Virus record (IMG/VR): IMGVR_UViG_2537562019_000014
From: a virus
Lineage: Duplodnaviria > Heunggongvirae > Uroviricota > Caudoviricetes
Direction: 5' to 3' (one strand)
Length of the DNA: 19,722 nucleotides
Shown here: in pieces, positions 2,851 through 14,935 of the stretch
How the letters are laid out: each line of letters begins with the position of its first letter
Position numbering within the stretch: position 1 is the stretch's first letter
Notes under the pieces: generated by a model
What the model was told of the DNA's origin: nothing
Database searches by the model: none
Seen by the model: the letters and a program-made list of their open reading frames with translations, nothing else
Position numbers and translations under genes: made by a program

Positions 2851-3147
2851 GGTATGCACTCCGTTTAATTGGTCGTGCTACCACCAGAGTTCTCACGCTC
2901 TTGAATGGTGGTAGCCCAAGCGGGGGTGAGAATACCGGCAAACGAAGAAACCGGCCTGACCGAAGTCAGCCCCGCCTGAGCCACCATAAATCGGATATGC
3001 GCAGGTATATACACACAAAAAAACACGCTGGCGCGTGTTGTGCGCTTCGTTTATCCGGGTTCTCACGCCCGGCTGCGGAATTTGCCGCAGCGGAGTAACT
3101 TTACCGTCAAAACGACGCACACGTCAATAATTTGCAAAGACATTTTA

Positions 3148-9293: not shown

Positions 9294-9315
9294 ACTGTAA
9301 TCATAAATGATCTTC

Positions 9316-9357
9316 TTATAGCTGGCTATAAAATTTATTTATTATAGCTGGCTTTAA
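9316..9357. promoter_or_regulatory. Operator pair in the cB-cro divergent promoter region
   Basis: TTATAGC-TG-GCTATAA (9316-9331), a 16-bp near-palindrome, and a second imperfect copy TTATAGCTGGCTTTAA (9342-9357), 26 bp apart centre to centre. Confidence 0.5.
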
Positions 9358-9384
9358 TTATTGTTTATTGTTTATAATAACAAC

Positions 9385-9606
9385 ATGAAACCAGAAGAAC
9401 TTATTCGCCACTTTGGCAGTGTTGAAAAAGCAGCGGCAGGGGTAGGTGTAACACCCGGAGCTGTTTACCAATGGTTAACCGCTGGAGAGATTCCTTCATT
9501 GCGGCAAAGCGATATTGAAGTTCGTACTGCTTACAAGCTGAAGAGTGACTTTACAACTCGGCGGGTAAAGCAGTCGATTAAGGAGAGTCGTAAGCGTGGA
9601 GCTTGA
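9385..9606 (+). CDS. cro: Cro-like HTH regulator (73 aa from ATG 9385)
   Basis: Small HTH protein (GVTPGAVYQWLTAGEIP) divergent from cB; the ORF track begins at a TTG at 9361, ATG 9385 preferred. Confidence 0.65.
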   Translation: MKPEELIRHFGSVEKAAAGVGVTPGAVYQWLTAGEIPSLRQSDIEVRTAYKLKSDFTTRRVKQSIKESRKRGA

Positions 9607-10306
9607 GTATATACGCAGCTGCGTCTCTACGGCATTGGCTGATGTTCATTATCGCCAGCGTGGCATTCTGGAGGTCCAGCTTGAGCAGATGCGTCTCGGT
9701 AGATCAGGACGGTTTAACAATAAACCAGTCCGGTCAATCAGTGTGGGGGATGATAACTCATACGAAGTGTCCGTTCCCGCTGAGCCGGTTAGATTCCACC
9801 AGGGGAAAACATTTAAACAATCATCAATGTTGCTCACTGATATTGATTTTCAGAGCGCCAGCTGGCGCAGGGCTATTTGTCAGTTGAATAACGAGGAATC
9901 AGCCTGGCTTTATTATTGCTACGGATGCAAGCCTGACTACAACAATGATGTGATTGTTTGTCAGTGGTTATGGCTTGATTTTCTGGTTGCTCATTCGGGG
10001 GGCGGCTTTAAAAAAATGAAGGCCTCCACGAAAAAAGCCATGCGGAAATTGATTTATTACGCGGCACAGCAGGTTAAATCAGAACTTACGTGTGCTGAGG
10101 CAGTTGATGAGAGAGAACAGGACAGGCATCTGAGTTTTCTACTGAATATATCTATTGATAGCTGGAGACAAGATTATAAAGAACGCTGGCTTTTAATTAA
10201 GTCGCGATGTCTGAGCTTAAATCGAACCGCATTATTAAATGCGGCGGAGAAGCGCAGTGAAATCATCAAACGCCATCGGGCAGGAAGTGCCATTCTGCCT
10301 TTGTAA
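9596..10306 (+). CDS. 236-aa protein in the position of the N15 Q late-gene regulator; function not verifiable from sequence
   Basis: GTG start with AAGGAG RBS, overlaps the end of cro; synteny cB-cro-Q as in N15 immB; several Cys (YCYGC). Confidence 0.45.
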   Translation: MELEYIRSCVSTALADVHYRQRGILEVQLEQMRLGRSGRFNNKPVRSISVGDDNSYEVSVPAEPVRFHQGKTFKQSSMLLTDIDFQSASWRRAICQLNNEESAWLYYCYGCKPDYNNDVIVCQWLWLDFLVAHSGGGFKKMKASTKKAMRKLIYYAAQQVKSELTCAEAVDEREQDRHLSFLLNISIDSWRQDYKERWLLIKSRCLSLNRTALLNAAEKRSEIIKRHRAGSAILPL

Positions 10307-10559
10307 ACAAGTTATGTTCAGGAAACCGTCGAAGCCAGAATTAAGGTATTCGGGGGTAAGAAATGAATATGTCATCTGGTGTCCAACTTGCGGTTACAGG
10401 ACACGACCCGATAGTAATAAGCAGTCTGTAATTGCCGATTGGTATTTATCAAATCAGCCAGGTAATAAGCATATAGAAAATCTTTGGATTAAGCGTTATC
10501 TGGAAATTAGAGAGGGTGCGACCACGGTCGCACAAGAAAATGAAAATAACGCCATTTAA
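10257..10559 (+). CDS. Small putative zinc-ribbon protein (Cys pairs FCLC and CPTCG)
   Basis: GTG 10257 with GGAG RBS (alternative starts ATG 10239 or ATG 10316); overlaps the 3' end of the Q-position gene; contains centromere-like palindrome copy 2. Confidence 0.4.
   Translation: MKSSNAIGQEVPFCLCKQVMFRKPSKPELRYSGVRNEYVIWCPTCGYRTRPDSNKQSVIADWYLSNQPGNKHIENLWIKRYLEIREGATTVAQENENNAI
10516..10533. repeat. SopB-type centromere-like palindrome, copy 2
   Basis: GTGCGACCACGGTCGCAC, perfect 8-bp arms, inside the zinc-ribbon ORF. Confidence 0.55.
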
Positions 10560-10569
10560 ACAGGGGCCG

Positions 10570-10743
10570 ATGACGCATGATGAGGCAGAGCGTCTTTCAG
10601 ATACTTATCGGCGGCGTGGTAAGAAAGTTCTGGTTGTTCGTTCTGATTTTTTAGGTGATGGATATTGCGTTTATGTTCATTTACCTGAATCAGAAAGAGC
10701 ACCAAAACCATCCAGAACATATCAACAGAAGTTTTGGGCATAG
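10570..10743 (+). CDS. Hypothetical small protein (57 aa)
   Basis: ATG 11 nt after the upstream stop; no clear RBS; start uncertain (ORF track begins at 10516). Confidence 0.3.
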   Translation: MTHDEAERLSDTYRRRGKKVLVVRSDFLGDGYCVYVHLPESERAPKPSRTYQQKFWA

Positions 10744-10766
10744 ATAAACATTGAGGAGAATTATTC

Positions 10767-11366
10767 GTGACTAATCAGATAATTTACGACAGGAAACGGT
10801 CTGATGTAATGATTGACCTTGAAACAATGGGTACTAATACATGTGCTCCAATTGTTTCTATCGGGGCAGTGTTTTTTTCTCCTGAAAGTGAGGAATTAGG
10901 TGCCACTTTTTATGTACCAGTGAATCTCAGAAGCTCGATGTTAAATGGTGGTGTTGCCGATGGTGATACCATTTTATGGTGGTTGCGGCAGAGCAAGGAA
11001 GCCAGAGCCGCAATTTGTACTAATGATGCCCTTGATATTAATGATGCACTTTTTGAATTATCACACTTTATTACTTGCCATGCTTGTAATTTAAAAACAT
11101 TGAAAGTATGGGGAAATGGAGCAACGTTCGATAATGTAATTTTACGCGGCGCTTATGAGCGCGTTGGCTTATCCTGTCCGTGGGAATATTTTAATGATCA
11201 GGATGTTCGAACAATCGTTAATCTTGGTCAGTTTATTGGTTTTAATCCTAAAAAAGATATGCCATTTGATGGCGAACGACACAATGCCCTGGCTGATGCT
11301 ATTCATCAGGCTAAATATGTATCTGCAATTTTCTCCCGTCTTGTAAAAGGGCAAGGAGAATCGTAA
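10767..11366 (+). CDS. DEDDh-family (DnaQ-like) 3'-5' exonuclease
   Basis: GTG start with GAGGAG RBS; Exo I motif MIDLETMG near the N-terminus and C-terminal H-x4-D (ERHNALADA) typical of DEDDh exonucleases. Confidence 0.65.
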   Translation: MTNQIIYDRKRSDVMIDLETMGTNTCAPIVSIGAVFFSPESEELGATFYVPVNLRSSMLNGGVADGDTILWWLRQSKEARAAICTNDALDINDALFELSHFITCHACNLKTLKVWGNGATFDNVILRGAYERVGLSCPWEYFNDQDVRTIVNLGQFIGFNPKKDMPFDGERHNALADAIHQAKYVSAIFSRLVKGQGES

Positions 11367-11785
11367 TGGCAAAGGCTTTTACACCAGAACAGAGGGAAGA
11401 ACTGAATAAACAAATTGTGGAACTCGTGCGCCTGAATGGACGAGGAACGGTTAGGCAACTTGCGGATGAAACTGGTATTAGCCGGTGTGCTGTTAGTCGT
11501 TTATCAAGAGAGCTTGCTGCCAGTGGTGATTTGTATATCTCTGGCTCCGGGATATTTCTGTCTGCACAAGCACGCAAGGACTGGCAAAACGCCCGTAAAA
11601 AACTATCAAGAGTAAAGCCGAAGAAATCGGTAGTGGTTGATCCAGACCTTATCTGGTCATTACCTGACGGAGAAATACGTCGCTACGACAGGCGCCTGAA
11701 CATGATTTGTCACGATTGTCGGAAGAGCGAAGTTATGCAGCGTGTGTTGGCGTTTTATCAGGGAAATTTTCAGGAGGTGGCGTAG
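11366..11785 (+). CDS. Winged-helix/HTH-containing hypothetical protein (139 aa)
   Basis: AAGGAGAA RBS; start overlaps the upstream stop (TAATG); N-terminal HTH-like segment GTVRQLADETGISRCAVSRLSRELA. Confidence 0.6.
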   Translation: MAKAFTPEQREELNKQIVELVRLNGRGTVRQLADETGISRCAVSRLSRELAASGDLYISGSGIFLSAQARKDWQNARKKLSRVKPKKSVVVDPDLIWSLPDGEIRRYDRRLNMICHDCRKSEVMQRVLAFYQGNFQEVA

Positions 11786-12075
11786 TGAATATCGACACCA
11801 CGATAACGATCGATATGGCCCTAAATACCGGTCTGGCACTTCTCGGTTGGTTTTACATCATGTTCAGTGCGGGGAAGTGGGCGGCCTCTGTTTTTCTAAA
11901 GCAGTGGGGAAAGCGCCGCAAACAGGAAAAACGCCAGAAAGCGTTGGAGGCGTTCTATGACGCATTTGAACTTGGCCGCATTGAACCAGGTACAACAGCC
12001 AGGATAGCGACAAAAGGCGACCTGATGATAGTGATGTTCCGACAGGAGAGAGCAGAGAAAGGGGGATCAGCATGA
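11785..12075 (+). CDS. Small membrane protein (about 97 aa from GTG)
   Basis: GTG 11785 with AGGAGG RBS, overlapping the upstream stop (TAGTG); one predicted TM segment LALLGWFYIMF; the ORF track begins earlier at 11707. Confidence 0.45.
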   Translation: MNIDTTITIDMALNTGLALLGWFYIMFSAGKWAASVFLKQWGKRRKQEKRQKALEAFYDAFELGRIEPGTTARIATKGDLMIVMFRQERAEKGGSA

Positions 12076-12731
12076 AATTTTCCAAATTTTCTGAGTTGGT
12101 GAATCGTATTTTGTCCAACAACCACAGCCATCGTCGCGATATGGATGTAACAATCGTTGTTCATTCGCCTGGCAGCATTGGTTCAACACCTTCAGTTGAG
12201 GTTCAGTCAATTCACGCTGGTTTTGATTGGGATTCCGGGAAAGTGCTTATTTTCCCAACACAGCCACTGACCACGCTAACACCAGAACAGATTACTGATA
12301 TTACTGATAGTGTGCGCAAAGGTCAGTCTTGGCACGCATATCAGGAATATAAAAAGCATAAAGAGCAGTTGGAAAAATTGTCGATTGAGTTGGAATCAGC
12401 CAAAAATCACATAGCAGAACTGGAAGCCAAACCTGTAAGCCAAACTTACAAGTTAACTTTTGAGCAATGGCTGGAACAGCAGCATGACAAAATTGATGTT
12501 GATTGTGGATGTGTAAGTACAGAAATGCTTATGCACTGGATAAGGGTCGCGTATGAGGCTGGCAACTCTCCGGTAACTCCGGATGGTCATATTCAGTTTT
12601 CTGTTTCACTTCCTGCAGCATGTGGTGGAGATAAATATTTTATTGATGGTGTATTTCAACCTTTGAGATATGAGCGTGACTGTGAAAAAGCGGTTGTGGC
12701 CGCTGGCGGTGTAGTTAATTGGGTTAAGTAA
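12072..12731 (+). CDS. Hypothetical protein (219 aa), no recognisable domain
   Basis: ATG overlaps the upstream stop (ATGA); continues the coupled operon. Confidence 0.6.
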   Translation: MKFSKFSELVNRILSNNHSHRRDMDVTIVVHSPGSIGSTPSVEVQSIHAGFDWDSGKVLIFPTQPLTTLTPEQITDITDSVRKGQSWHAYQEYKKHKEQLEKLSIELESAKNHIAELEAKPVSQTYKLTFEQWLEQQHDKIDVDCGCVSTEMLMHWIRVAYEAGNSPVTPDGHIQFSVSLPAACGGDKYFIDGVFQPLRYERDCEKAVVAAGGVVNWVK

Positions 12732-12746
12732 TTTTCAGGAGGATTT

Positions 12747-13073
12747 ATGGCGCTGACAGCTGCAGAACGGCAAAGGAGACGCAGGGAACGGTTGAAGAAG
12801 GAAGGCACATCAAGACGGGACTGGATTCTGGAACCTGACGAGTTACGTATGTTGGGGGAAATTTGTGTATTGCGTAGACCAGGGCGAGTTCCATATTCAG
12901 AGAACGAAGTCATCGGACTGCTGATCAGGAAAAACTATAAGGAGTTGCAGAAACAGCTATCTACTACTTGTCCGCGATGTGGTCAAAGAATGCCTGTTTC
13001 AGAATGCATTTTTGATGGTGAAGGCTCATGCCACCTTACAACCACGAGGCTGAAACTTGCGCTCAAAGTGTGA
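12747..13073 (+). CDS. Hypothetical protein with Arg-rich N-terminus and a Cys/His cluster (108 aa)
   Basis: Strong AGGAGG RBS; N-terminus MALTAAERQRRRRERLKKEG suggests nucleic-acid binding; CPRCG...C..H near the C-terminus. Confidence 0.55.
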   Translation: MALTAAERQRRRRERLKKEGTSRRDWILEPDELRMLGEICVLRRPGRVPYSENEVIGLLIRKNYKELQKQLSTTCPRCGQRMPVSECIFDGEGSCHLTTTRLKLALKV

Positions 13074-13244
13074 CTGGTCACGGAGGGGTAAATGGACAAA
13101 AAGGCATTGCTTTTTGAAATGATACGAAAACGGAGCGAAAAGAGCTTTTCTGATGGTGGTGATGGGCTTTTGGAAGTGGTTGGGCGAGGCGCAGGAAGGG
13201 AACATAAGTATCGGACTACAAAGATATTTAACCAGTTAATCCAT

Positions 13245-13291
13245 TGAAAGCTGGCTATAAAATTTGAGTTTTACCCTGTAATTTTATACAG
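13245..13291. promoter_or_regulatory. Operator-like half-site plus LexA (SOS) box upstream of a small gene
   Basis: AGCTGGCTATAAAATTT (13245-13263) repeats the immB operator right half; CTGT-AATTTTAT-ACAG at 13276-13291 fits the LexA box consensus CTGT-N8-ACAG. Confidence 0.55.
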
Positions 13292-13315
13292 TATCAAATA
13301 ACCTTTTTTAATTAA

Positions 13316-13534
13316 ATGGTATTAGATTCAATGACTGAAGCACCTGTATCAACTCTTGAAGAACTCGGATCAAACCTAAAAGACATCGACGCCGTTTTGG
13401 ATCTGGTTAGCGTTGCTCTGGCTTCTCCAGAAGCCAGCTTGCATCTTGGCGAGATTTCACGACTTGTTAGTATGTCGCGGGAGATAGCTCAGAATTGCCA
13501 ACAAGTTATTGCTGTTGAGAGTTTACATCATTGA
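13316..13534 (+). CDS. Small acidic protein downstream of the LexA box; candidate antirepressor-type immA gene
   Basis: 72-aa ORF (alternative start ATG 13331); sits behind an SOS box and an operator-like motif; followed by a convergent hairpin. Confidence 0.4.
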   Translation: MVLDSMTEAPVSTLEELGSNLKDIDAVLDLVSVALASPEASLHLGEISRLVSMSREIAQNCQQVIAVESLHH

Positions 13535-13577
13535 TACACACCCCGCCCTTCCGGACGGGGTAGCGAAAAGGGTCTAA

Positions 13578-14845: not shown

Positions 14846-14874
14846 TTGGCAAAATGACGGTTTTTAGTTATTGT
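14846..14874 (+). promoter_or_regulatory. Candidate late promoter
   Basis: TTGGCA, 17-nt spacer, TATTGT; located upstream of a terminator and of the methylase/lysis/terminase genes, analogous to lambda PR'-tR'. Confidence 0.3.
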
Positions 14875-14911
14875 TTTGTTAAGTTGGGTTTTTTGTACCC
14901 AACAGCTAACA

Positions 14912-14935
14912 AGCCGCCTTTATGGCGGTTTTTTT
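14912..14935 (+). terminator. Intrinsic terminator (tR'-like) ahead of the late genes
   Basis: AGCCGCC-TTTAT-GGCGG stem followed by T7. Confidence 0.6.

What the first reader, a model, noticed from the sequence alone, without database searches (positions are those of the whole stretch)
10767..13073. Translationally coupled accessory operon: DEDDh exonuclease, wHTH protein, small membrane protein, 219-aa and 108-aa unknowns
Five genes after the Q-position gene are joined by overlapping stop/start codons (TAATG, TAGTG, ATGA) and strong RBSs, which indicates co-expression as one unit; two small upstream genes (10257-10743) may belong to the same transcript. Only the exonuclease has a recognisable fold. 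A nuclease with a DNA-binding protein and a membrane protein in a phage-plasmid accessory position is a plausible anti-defence or defence module, which makes this the second candidate for an undescribed system.
Basis: partly seen in the sequence, partly recalled or inferred. Interest (0 to 1): 0.6.

Follow-up and report, generated by a model that had tools for sequence, protein, structure and literature searches.

The report
Mosaic early accessory genes, N15-like phage
The five tightly packed genes are real, but they are an ordinary patchwork of independently shuffled phage accessory genes sitting in a variable slot of an N15-like linear phage-plasmid, not a new multi-gene defence or anti-defence system.

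Summary
The sequence observation holds. Window 10767-13073 carries five same-strand ORFs with Shine-Dalgarno sites. Three junctions overlap (TAATG, TAGTG, ATGA) and the fourth is a 15-nt gap. This packing is normal for the genome: 8 of 29 co-directional junctions in a 97%-identical phage overlap by 1 or 4 nt.

The window is an N15-like (Ravinvirus) phage-plasmid. The genes lie between Q and the late promoter, in a hypervariable slot bounded by conserved Lar-like/p75 genes and N15 gp46.

All five proteins fall into existing families:
- a DexA/EcD-type DEDDh exonuclease (PF16473)
- a lambda-Ren-like winged-helix protein (DUF977, phrog_142)
- DUF4752
- a modular Ea22/DUF551-type protein
- N15 gp46

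Diverged homologues of the exonuclease and of DUF977 never occur together outside this lineage. Each has its own usual context in lambdoid prophages. N15 fills the same slot with different genes, and 95-99%-identical relatives differ in the DUF4752/p219 part. GC3 ranges from 0.29 to 0.56 between neighbouring genes.

The best reading is a mosaic array of independent early (CB-repressed, cro-Q operon) accessory genes. Anti-defence roles for single genes remain plausible, but as members of known kinds.

The parts
9596..10306 (+). Q-type antiterminator gene (context; upstream end of the early-right operon cro-Q)
   Evidence: PF06323 at 2.7e-84. 67% identical to N15 gp40.
10257..10559 (+). Lar-like zinc-ribbon protein (100 aa). 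It overlaps the Q 3' end and is conserved in N15, where it is unannotated.
   Evidence: phrog_6795 'Lar-like restriction alleviation' at 9.6e-45. Pfam Lar_restr_allev scores 21.4 bits, below the 28.6 cut-off. 77% identical to an N15 ORF.
10516..10743 (+). p75, a small conserved protein of unknown function. The true start is probably 10540 or 10570. It is the left border of the variable slot.
   Evidence: phrog_1212 at 6.7e-25, matching residues 9-74. 53% identical to an N15 ORF. PGAP and PhiR46_1 annotate the 57-aa form.
10767..11366 (+). DEDDh 3'-5' exonuclease of the Rv2179c/DexA/EcD family (199 aa; PGAP prefers the ATG at 10809, giving 185 aa)
   Evidence: PF16473 at 3e-68 and phrog_255 at 2e-80. 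PDB best hit is T4 DexA 8KEL at 6e-7. D17, E19, D122, H172 and D177 are present; D17, E19 and D122 were counted as invariant in 66 homologues, and the H172/D177 motif was conserved in the homologue rows displayed. 34% identical to EcD.
11366..11785 (+). DUF977 winged-helix protein, lambda-Ren family (139 aa; annotated 'LygF' in PhiR46_1)
   Evidence: PF06163 at 1.1e-29 and phrog_142 at 2.7e-42. Lambda Ren is also phrog_142, at 1.6e-41. The two share a C-terminal motif by BLASTP, E 9e-6.
11785..12075 (+). DUF4752 small protein with one hydrophobic N-terminal segment (96 aa)
   Evidence: PF15944 at 1.7e-40 and phrog_667. Hydropathy. 92-97% nt identity to P1/D6-type phage-plasmids.
12072..12731 (+). 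p219, a modular protein: N-domain (1-~120), coiled coil (~87-119), middle module (128-163), GNSPVTPDG linker, and an alternative C-terminal module (172-219)
   Evidence: phrog_6026, 368, 924 and 60. Segment-wise tblastn hits to different phages. The homologue alignment shows module swapping, with DUF551 as the alternative C-terminus. No Pfam Ead_Ea22 or DUF551 hit.
12747..13073 (+). p108, the orthologue of N15 gp46 and the right border of the variable slot. It has a basic N-terminal arm and a C-terminal Cys cluster (C75, C78, C87, C95).
   Evidence: 78% identical to N15 gp46. phrog_536 'transcriptional regulator' at 3.3e-32. Narrow family of 27 clusters, all at least 66% identical. The invariant Cys residues are seen.
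13092..13247 (+). p51, a short gp47-like ORF and the last gene of the tightly packed run
   Evidence: phrog_13995 at 1.1e-17. 43% identical to the N15 gp47 region. 96% identical alleles in L016, L017 and L022.
13245..13260 (+). CB-operator-like 16-mer upstream of p72. It marks a probable separate, repressor-controlled promoter and so the 3' limit of the array.
   Evidence: TGAAAGCTGGCTATAA differs at 2 positions from the OR palindrome at 9316-9331. My estimate of the chance expectation is about 0.01 per window.
14846..14931 (+). Late-promoter-like site (14846-14874) followed by a strong intrinsic terminator (14911-14931). This is the probable Q target and shows that the array lies upstream of the late operon.
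   Evidence: N15 annotates a -35/-10 pair plus a stem-loop at the homologous place, upstream of gene 52.

Best explanation
The region is the variable accessory slot of the early-right (cro-Q) operon of an N15-like linear phage-plasmid. It is probably transcribed from the CB-repressed cro promoter after infection or induction, before Q acts on the late promoter further downstream. This resembles the nin and exo-xis regions of lambda.

The slot is filled by illegitimate or homologous exchange with lambdoid prophages and P1/D6-type phage-plasmids. It therefore holds a patchwork of genes that act independently:
1. A DexA/EcD-family DEDDh 3'-5' exonuclease. Its relatives sit beside Rad52-type annealase and SSB genes, so the likeliest substrate is DNA 3' ends.
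2. A lambda-Ren-family winged-helix protein. The inferred role is protection from a Rex-type abortive-infection system, or DNA binding.
3. A small, probably membrane-anchored DUF4752 protein.
4. A modular coiled-coil protein of the Ea22/DUF551 type, often next to DUF4752.
5. The conserved backbone gene gp46, a putative small DNA-binding or zinc-binding regulator.

The overlapping stop/start codons are the standard module joints of such arrays, not a sign of a dedicated multi-protein machine.

Shown: the anatomy, family memberships, mosaic distribution and slot variability. Inferred: co-transcription, early timing and all biochemical roles.
For: Identity of the element:
- 97% nt identity to Ravinvirus phage YDC107_1, with the same gene order as N15.

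Slot variability:
- Q, Lar-like, p75, gp46, gp47 and p72 are conserved with N15. Exo, DUF977, DUF4752 and p219 are not. N15 carries gp41-45 there instead.
- Among 48 N15-like loci the slot has about 20 or more gene arrangements. Its first gene is this Exo (17 loci), a gp41-type RNase_T exonuclease (17) or a small protein (14).
- Relatives that are 95-99% identical in Q through DUF977 lack DUF4752 or carry a split or replaced p219.

Independence of the genes:
- None of 63 Exo homologues (54-68% identical) has DUF977 within 5 kb. Their neighbours are Rad52_Rad22, SSB, AlpA-type excisionase and integrase.
- None of 70 DUF977 homologues (72-76% identical) has Exo. They follow DnaC/IstB-like and DUF1627 genes, which is the position of lambda ren.
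- The full four-gene block is found in 17 of 5426 E. coli genomes, while parts of it match in 2641.
- DNA-level mosaic: window 11784-12424 is 92% identical to P1/D6-type phages, 11367-11788 is 78% identical to lambdoid 'LygF' genes, and 12489-12587 is 86-88% identical to Stx phages.
- GC3 is 0.29 / 0.44 / 0.56 / 0.36 / 0.46 for the five genes.

Expression and defence screens:
- There are no internal promoter or terminator signals. The late promoter plus terminator lies at 14846-14931.
- PADLOC finds no defence model.
- A survey preprint found no complete defence system in N15-like phage-plasmids, only 'DEDDh proteins in all sequences'.
Against: - No expression data were available, so co-transcription and early timing are inferred.
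- Exo and DUF977 are always adjacent within the one lineage that carries them. That lineage is too closely related (95-99%) to say anything either way.
- DUF4752 and the p219 N-domain are adjacent in about 47 of 62 non-N15 loci, in both orders. At least this pair may be functionally linked.
- gp46-like genes directly precede Exo homologues in five prophage loci.
- A DEDDh exonuclease of one type or another opens the slot in 34 of 48 loci, and in N15 it is fused to a Lar domain. This hints at selection for a shared theme rather than random cargo.
Confidence: 0.75

Rival explanations
1. Counter-defence island. The genes are not one machine. The slot is selected as a collection of anti-defence functions expressed early: Lar-like against type I restriction, Ren-like against Rex-type abortive infection, and the exonuclease against a nucleic-acid-based defence component.
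For: - Lar-like phrog_6795 lies upstream.
- The wHTH protein shares phrog_142 with lambda Ren.
- N15 gp41 fuses an RNase_T exonuclease to a Pfam Lar domain scoring above its cut-off.
- 34 of 48 slots open with a DEDDh exonuclease.
- The early, repressor-controlled position is inferred.
Against: - No anti-defence activity has been shown for any of these exact families apart from the lambda Ren and Rac Lar type members.
- The window's Lar-like ORF scores below the Pfam cut-off and shows no pairwise similarity to the gp41 Lar domain.
- Exo homologues elsewhere sit in recombination modules.
- Ea22-type proteins are linked in the literature to the lysis-lysogeny decision rather than to defence (PMC7093339 abstract).
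Confidence: 0.3
2. The exonuclease is a prophage-borne defence gene of the HREX/EcD type that destroys 5hmC-modified DNA of T-even phages, and the other genes are accessories to it.
For: - Exo is in the same Pfam and PHROG families as T4 DexA and EcD.
- Exo is 34% identical to EcD over the full length.
- EcD protected E. coli from T4 (PMC12153337).
Against: - The residue aligned with DexA W152 is F142.
- The residue aligned with DexA D90, whose loss defines the EcD-like dimer state, is still Asp (D93).
- No acidic residue aligns clearly with D169.
- The gene lies in the repressor-controlled lytic operon with no promoter of its own, so it is probably silent in the lysogen.
- PADLOC gives only a sub-threshold generic DEDDh hit.
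Confidence: 0.07
3. A single undescribed five-gene defence or anti-defence system (nuclease, DNA-binding sensor, membrane effector and two unknowns) that works as one unit.
For: - Tight packing and translational-coupling-type junctions.
- A nuclease/wHTH/membrane-protein composition resembles some defence operons in a general way.
Against: - The genes do not co-occur outside one closely related lineage.
- Close relatives lack or replace members.
- Each gene has a different usual context.
- The same junction types are common across the genome.
- No defence HMM matches.
Confidence: 0.04
4. Core recombination/replication module of the phage-plasmid: the exonuclease plus DNA-binding proteins are needed for N15-type replication or telomere processing.
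For: - Exo homologues neighbour Rad52-type annealase and SSB genes in lambdoid prophages.
- N15 has another 3'-5' exonuclease at the same position.
Against: - 14 of 48 N15-like loci have no exonuclease in the slot.
- No annealase or SSB gene lies in this window's array.
- Four of the five genes are absent from N15 itself.
Confidence: 0.1

Closest known systems
N15 genes 41-47 (region between Q and the late promoter of phage N15 and other Ravinvirus/telomere phages)
   Same: - Same position, strand and borders: Q, an unannotated Lar-like ORF and p75 on the left; gp46, gp47 and p72 on the right.
- The slot is also opened by a DEDDh exonuclease and also ends with a coiled-coil mosaic protein.
   Different: - The four inner genes are not homologous. 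N15 has gp41 (RNase_T + Lar fusion) and gp42-45. The window has a PF16473 exonuclease, DUF977, DUF4752 and p219.
T4 DexA and E. coli EcD (HREX exonucleases; PDB 8KEL; PMC12153337)
   Same: - Same Pfam (PF16473) and PHROG (255) family.
- Complete DEDDh catalytic set.
- Same size as EcD, 34% identical to EcD and 27% to DexA.
   Different: - The residues reported to read 5hmC (W152, D169) and the D90-to-Ala change of EcD are not reproduced: F142, no clear acidic equivalent, and D93.
- The substrate is untested.
Lambda Ren (first gene of the nin region; its loss makes lambda sensitive to Rex exclusion. This rests on my own knowledge of Toothman & Herskowitz 1980. Thomason & Court 2022 is listed in the references of PMC11077077.)
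   Same: - Same PHROG family 142, matched over the full length.
- N-terminal winged helix and the C-terminal motif C-R-x-S-x-x-M-x-R-V-L-A-x-Y.
- Lambdoid homologues of the window protein occupy the ren position after the replication genes.
   Different: - 139 aa against 96 aa.
- Pairwise similarity is confined to 20 residues.
- Lambda Ren does not hit Pfam DUF977.
- Here the gene follows an exonuclease, not replication genes.
Lambda exo-xis / ea-region proteins (Ea22) and the DUF551/EaA proteins of Stx phages and P1 (pmg region)
   Same: - Modular build with a central coiled coil.
- Shares phrog_368 with lambda Ea22.
- Segment-wise similarity to Stx-phage EaA/DUF551 proteins and to P1.
- An early-transcribed accessory position.
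   Different: - No Pfam Ead_Ea22 or DUF551 domain in the window protein.
- No pairwise similarity to lambda Ea22.
- The C-terminal module is a different one.

Membership tests
Rv2179c-like / DexA DEDDh exonucleases (PF16473, phrog_255) | Profile match above the curated cut-off | tested here: met
   229.5 bits against a cut-off of 27. phrog_255 at 2e-80.
Rv2179c-like / DexA DEDDh exonucleases (PF16473, phrog_255) | DEDDh catalytic residues (DxE, D, Hx4D) | tested here: met
   D17, E19, D122, H172 and D177 are present. D17, E19 and D122 are invariant in 66 homologues and align with DexA; the ERHNALAD motif (H172/D177) is conserved in the homologue rows displayed.
Rv2179c-like / DexA DEDDh exonucleases (PF16473, phrog_255) | 3'-5' exonuclease activity and substrate (DNA or RNA) | not testable with these tools
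   Needs biochemistry. Family members include DNases (DexA, EcD) and, from my own knowledge, an RNase (Rv2179c).
HREX defence exonuclease (EcD type, PMC12153337) | Trp equivalent to DexA W152 and an acidic residue equivalent to D169 (5hmC recognition) | tested here: not met
   F142 aligns with W152. EcD has W there. 15 of 66 homologues have W. No acidic residue aligns reliably with D169.
HREX defence exonuclease (EcD type, PMC12153337) | Loss of the tetramer-forming Asp (DexA D90; A78 in EcD) | tested here: not met
   D93 aligns with DexA D90.
HREX defence exonuclease (EcD type, PMC12153337) | Protection of the host against 5hmC phages, with expression in the uninfected cell | not testable with these tools
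   There is no promoter of its own, and the gene lies in the repressor-controlled operon. This is an inference only.
Lambda Ren family (phrog_142) / DUF977 (PF06163) | Profile match | tested here: met
   PF06163 at 103.6 bits against a cut-off of 22.1. phrog_142 at 2.7e-42. Lambda Ren itself scores 1.6e-41 against phrog_142.
Lambda Ren family (phrog_142) / DUF977 (PF06163) | Position directly after the replication genes (start of the nin region) | tested here: not met
   In the window it follows the exonuclease. Its 72-76%-identical lambdoid homologues do follow DnaC/IstB-like and DUF1627 genes.
Lambda Ren family (phrog_142) / DUF977 (PF06163) | Confers resistance to Rex exclusion | not testable with these tools
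   Needs plating of a deletion mutant on lambda rex+ lysogens.
Ead/Ea22 (PF13935) and DUF551 (PF04448) | Pfam domain present in p219 | tested here: not met
   No hit even at E<=5. Lambda Ea22 hits PF13935 at 1.1e-28. Homologues with another C-terminus carry PF04448. The only link is shared phrog_368.
Lar restriction-alleviation family (PF14354 / TIGR03655), for the upstream ORF 10257-10559 | Profile match above the cut-off | tested here: inconclusive
   Pfam gives 21.4 bits against a cut-off of 28.6. NCBIfam gives 19.3 against 39.6. phrog_6795 'Lar-like' scores 9.6e-45.
N15 gp46 (phrog_536) | Orthology by sequence and synteny | tested here: met
   78% identity over 108 aa, and the same place before gp47. 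Fold not obtained: AF2 pLDDT 55.
Known anti-phage defence systems (PADLOC-DB 2.0) | Any component HMM match | tested here: not met
   Only sub-threshold generic hits: DEDDh at E 1.3e-3 over 33 residues, and CasR HTH at E 2.9e-3.
Multi-gene 'system' (any) | Conserved co-occurrence of the components in diverged genomes | tested here: not met
   0 of 63 Exo loci carry DUF977 and 0 of 70 DUF977 loci carry Exo. The slot is variable in 48 N15-like loci. Only DUF4752 and the p219 N-domain recur together.

The most novel reading that the evidence does not exclude
The p75-gp46 slot of N15-like phage-plasmids may be a counter-defence island in two parts.

- A DEDDh 3'-5' exonuclease opens the slot. Two non-orthologous types do so in 34 of 48 loci, and one is fused to a Lar domain in N15. 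It would act together with Lar-type zinc-ribbon and Ren-type proteins to disarm nuclease- or abortive-infection-type host defences.
- DUF4752 plus the p219 N-domain would form a separate two-gene membrane-associated module. The pair is adjacent in both orders in lambdoid and P1-type elements, and its function is still unknown.
Probability: 0.15. Interest if true: 0.55.

Novelty: already known. Interest (0 to 1): 0.2.

Why it matters
As found, this is ordinary. It is a well-populated type of phage accessory gene array, and it is already present and annotated in published phage genomes (YDC107_1, PhiR46_1).

Its modest value lies in three points:
- It maps a hypervariable early-gene slot in N15-like phage-plasmids. 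These are common in Shigella sonnei and E. coli.
- Two unrelated 3'-5' exonucleases alternate at the head of that slot.
- It places the slot's exonuclease and winged-helix protein next to the only studied relatives (T4 DexA/EcD and lambda Ren), which gives concrete, cheap experiments.

If single genes prove to be anti-defence factors, they would extend known families rather than found a new system.

Tried and rejected
- AlphaFold2 of p108 (14-sequence alignment, pLDDT 54.8) and of p219 (pLDDT 49.0) was too poor, so no fold search was run. The only confident element is the p219 helix 87-119.
- PDB sequence searches of DUF977, p219 and p108 gave nothing below E about 0.03.
- NCBIfam gave no family for any of the five genes.
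- PADLOC gave nothing usable.
- Pairwise BLASTP of p219 against lambda Ea22 found no similarity, so the GenBank label 'Ea22' is not accepted as family membership.
- Pairwise BLASTP of the window's Lar-like ORF against the N15 gp41 Lar domain found no similarity, so the exonuclease-Lar 'Rosetta stone' link is weak.
- Literature searches for DUF977 and for Rv2179c in phages found nothing relevant.
- The Thomason & Court 2022 paper on ren is not held.
- I considered a terminator after p72. The hairpin at 13541-13561 has no U-run and a z-score of -0.7, so it was rejected as evidence.
- EcD was not available by accession. It was recovered from the primer sequences in the paper's supplement and a viral-contig scan. 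Its 3' end differs from the printed reverse primer by one base, but A78 matches the paper.
Full report
**What the window is.**
- The window is an N15-like (Ravinvirus) linear phage-plasmid.
- Region 9300-13300 is 97.1% identical over 97% of its length to Escherichia phage YDC107_1 and 96.5% identical to PhiR46_1.
- The surrounding genes run in N15 order: protelomerase, RepA, the CB repressor, cro, Q, a RelE/HTH pair, a Dam-type methylase, lysis genes and terminase.

**Checking the observation.**
  - Exo: 10767-11366.
  - DUF977: 11366-11785, with a TAATG junction.
  - DUF4752: 11785-12075, with a TAGTG junction.
  - p219: 12072-12731, with an ATGA junction.
  - p108: 12747-13073, after a 15-nt spacer.
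- Each start has a good Shine-Dalgarno sequence.
- The run continues with p51 (13092-13247).
- Consensus scans find no promoter-like or terminator-like site above the shuffled expectation inside 9361-13247.
- A promoter-like site followed by a strong terminator lies at 14846-14931. N15 annotates its -35/-10 pair and stem-loop at the homologous place, upstream of gene 52.
- The array therefore sits between Q and the probable Q target. It is most simply part of the CB-repressed cro-Q early operon. This is an inference, because no expression data exist.
- The overlaps themselves are not unusual. In the YDC107_1 annotation, 11 of 29 co-directional neighbouring gene pairs overlap, 8 of them by 1 or 4 nt.

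**What the proteins are.** All five, and their neighbours, fall into existing families.
- **Exo.**
  - It matches PF16473 (Rv2179c-like) at 3e-68 and phrog_255.
  - T4 DexA belongs to the same Pfam and PHROG families and is the best PDB match (8KEL, 6e-7).
  - The DEDDh set D17/E19/D122/H172/D177 is present; D17, E19 and D122 were counted as invariant in 66 homologues, and the H172/D177 motif was conserved in the homologue rows displayed.
- **The wHTH protein.**
  - It matches Pfam DUF977 and phrog_142.
  - Lambda Ren scores 1.6e-41 against the same PHROG.
  - It shares the C-terminal motif with lambda Ren.
- **The small protein.**
  - It matches DUF4752.
  - It has a single hydrophobic N-terminal stretch followed by a basic cluster. 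The hydropathy is borderline for a membrane helix.
- **p219.**
  - It is modular: an N-domain (phrog_6026), a coiled coil, a swappable middle module, a conserved GNSPVTPDG linker and a swappable C-terminus.
  - Homologues carry a DUF551 domain in place of the window's C-terminus.
  - It shares phrog_368 with lambda Ea22. It has neither the Pfam Ead_Ea22 domain nor any pairwise similarity to Ea22.
- **p108.**
  - It is N15 gp46 (78% identical) and matches phrog_536, 'transcriptional regulator'.
  - The family is narrow: 27 clusters, all at least 66% identical.
  - It has a basic N-terminal arm and four invariant cysteines.
- **Upstream ORFs.**
  - One is a Lar-like zinc-ribbon ORF: phrog_6795 at 9.6e-45, but below the Pfam cut-off.
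  - The other is a phrog_1212 protein.
  - Both are conserved in N15, although unannotated there.
- PADLOC finds no defence component.

**Is it one system? The comparative data say no.**
1. **N15 has different genes in the slot.**
   - N15 conserves Q, Lar-like, p75, gp46, gp47 and p72. It has none of Exo, DUF977, DUF4752 or p219.
   - The same slot holds gp41-45 instead. gp41 is an RNase_T exonuclease fused to a Lar domain.
2. **The slot is variable across N15-like loci.**
   - Among 48 N15-like loci anchored on gp46, the slot shows about 20 or more arrangements.
   - It opens with this Exo in 17 loci, with a gp41-type exonuclease in 17, and with a small unrelated protein in 14.
3. **Close relatives already differ.** Within the lineage that is 95-99% identical from Q to DUF977, some members lack DUF4752. 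Others have p219 split or replaced by DUF551 proteins and extra genes.
4. **Diverged homologues do not travel together.**
   - None of 63 Exo homologues at 54-68% identity has DUF977 nearby. They sit between Rad52_Rad22/SSB genes and AlpA-type excisionase/integrase genes.
   - None of 70 DUF977 homologues at 72-76% identity has Exo. They follow DnaC/IstB-like and DUF1627 genes, which is the place of lambda ren.
5. **The block is rare, its parts are common.** In complete E. coli genomes the four-gene block occurs in 17 of 5426, while parts of it match in 2641.
6. **The DNA is a patchwork.**
   - Window 11784-12424 is 92% identical to P1/D6-type phage-plasmids.
   - Window 11367-11788 is 78% identical to lambdoid genes.
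   - Window 12489-12587 is 86-88% identical to Stx phages.
   - GC3 jumps from 0.29 to 0.44, 0.56, 0.36 and 0.46 across the five genes.
7. **The ATGA joint is a module joint.** It is kept at the DUF4752 3' end in 68 of 73 loci, whichever of three different genes follows.

**Residual links worth recording.**
- DUF4752 and the p219 N-domain are neighbours in about 47 of 62 non-N15 loci, in both orders.
- gp46-like genes directly precede Exo homologues in five integrase-bearing prophage loci.
- A DEDDh exonuclease of one type or the other opens 34 of 48 slots.
- These links keep alive a looser 'counter-defence island' reading and a possible two-gene DUF4752/p219-N module. They do not rescue a five-gene system.

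**Relation to the only studied relatives of the exonuclease.**
- A 2025 paper reports that T4 DexA, and an E. coli homologue called EcD, recognise 5hmC-DNA, and that EcD protects against T4 ('HREX'; PMC12153337).
- I recovered EcD from the primers in the paper's supplement and a viral-contig scan. It is 189 aa, and A78 matches the paper.
- EcD is 34% identical to the window's Exo over its full length (E 2e-31).
- The window protein has F142 where DexA and EcD have the 5hmC-stacking Trp. It keeps Asp (D93) where EcD has lost the tetramer-forming Asp. No clear equivalent of D169 is present.
- The window protein is therefore a family member but does not meet the reported HREX signature.
- Its position in a lytic operon also argues against a prophage defence role.

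**What led nowhere.**
- AF2 models of p108 and p219 were of low confidence (pLDDT 55 and 49), so no fold searches were run.
- PDB sequence searches for DUF977, p219 and p108 were empty.
- The window's Lar-like ORF shows no pairwise similarity to the gp41 Lar domain.

**Verdict.**
- The interpretation as a candidate undescribed system is not supported.
- The region is a mosaic array of independently exchangeable early accessory genes in a hypervariable slot of an N15-like phage-plasmid. Near-identical, annotated copies exist in public phage genomes.
- Individual anti-defence functions (Ren-like, Lar-like, possibly the exonuclease) are plausible and cheaply testable. They would be new members of known kinds.

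Noticed in passing
window 13245-13260 (with 9316-9331 and 9342-9357): A CB-operator-like 16-mer, TGAAAGCTGGCTATAA, lies in the AT-rich gap before p72 (13316-13534; phrog_6301, with a weak anti-repressor-like hit). It differs at 2 positions from the OR palindrome and has a chance expectation of about 0.01 per window. It is absent at the same place in YDC107_1. This suggests a separate repressor-controlled promoter for p72 in this allele group.
   Followed up: partly
window 2904-3104 (- strand): Rfam finds a P1/P7-type secondary immunity set: C4 antisense RNA (82 bits), its a1/b1 targets and isrK. This indicates antisense control of an antirepressor in the left arm.
   Followed up: no
L003 (N15) 12161-13072: N15 gp41 is a fusion of an RNase_T-type DEDDh exonuclease (PF00929, 3.8e-25) and a Lar restriction-alleviation domain (PF14354, 47.5 bits, above its cut-off). 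It is annotated only as 'DNA polymerase exonuclease subunit'.
   Followed up: partly
N15-like loci L168-L215, slot between p75 and gp46 (window 10744-12746): The slot is hypervariable, with about 20 or more arrangements in 48 loci. It opens with one of two unrelated DEDDh exonucleases in 34 loci and with a small protein in 14.
   Followed up: yes
window 11784-12424; L006 3911-4550; phages D6 and vB_EcoM-Ro157c2YLVW: A 641-bp segment (DUF4752 plus the first 119 codons of p219) is 92% identical to P1/D6-type circular phage-plasmids, and 96.6% identical for DUF4752 in D6. This indicates recent exchange between the two phage-plasmid groups.
   Followed up: partly
L047 4631-5561, also L051, L052, L053, L058: In integrase-bearing prophages a gp46-like gene (38-40% identical, phrog_536) sits 2 nt upstream of an Exo homologue, next to the integrase. 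This is a second, independent gp46-Exo neighbourhood.
   Followed up: partly
L219, L224, L234, L237, L240 (viral contigs): The 189-aa EcD ('HREX') gene of PMC12153337 was located from its published primers. The printed reverse primer has one extra A relative to the natural 3' end (GAAAC against GAAC).
   Followed up: partly
window 10257-10306 and 10516-10559: The Lar-like ORF overlaps the 3' end of Q by 50 nt, and p75 (longest form) overlaps Lar-like by 44 nt. Both ORFs are conserved in N15 (77% and 53% aa identity) but are missing from the N15 RefSeq and PGAP annotations.
   Followed up: partly
window 13092-13247: p51 is 51 aa here, but its counterpart (gp47-like) is 80 aa in YDC107_1 and PhiR46_1. 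The short form is 96% identical in three other contigs, so it is an allele rather than a sequencing error.
   Followed up: no
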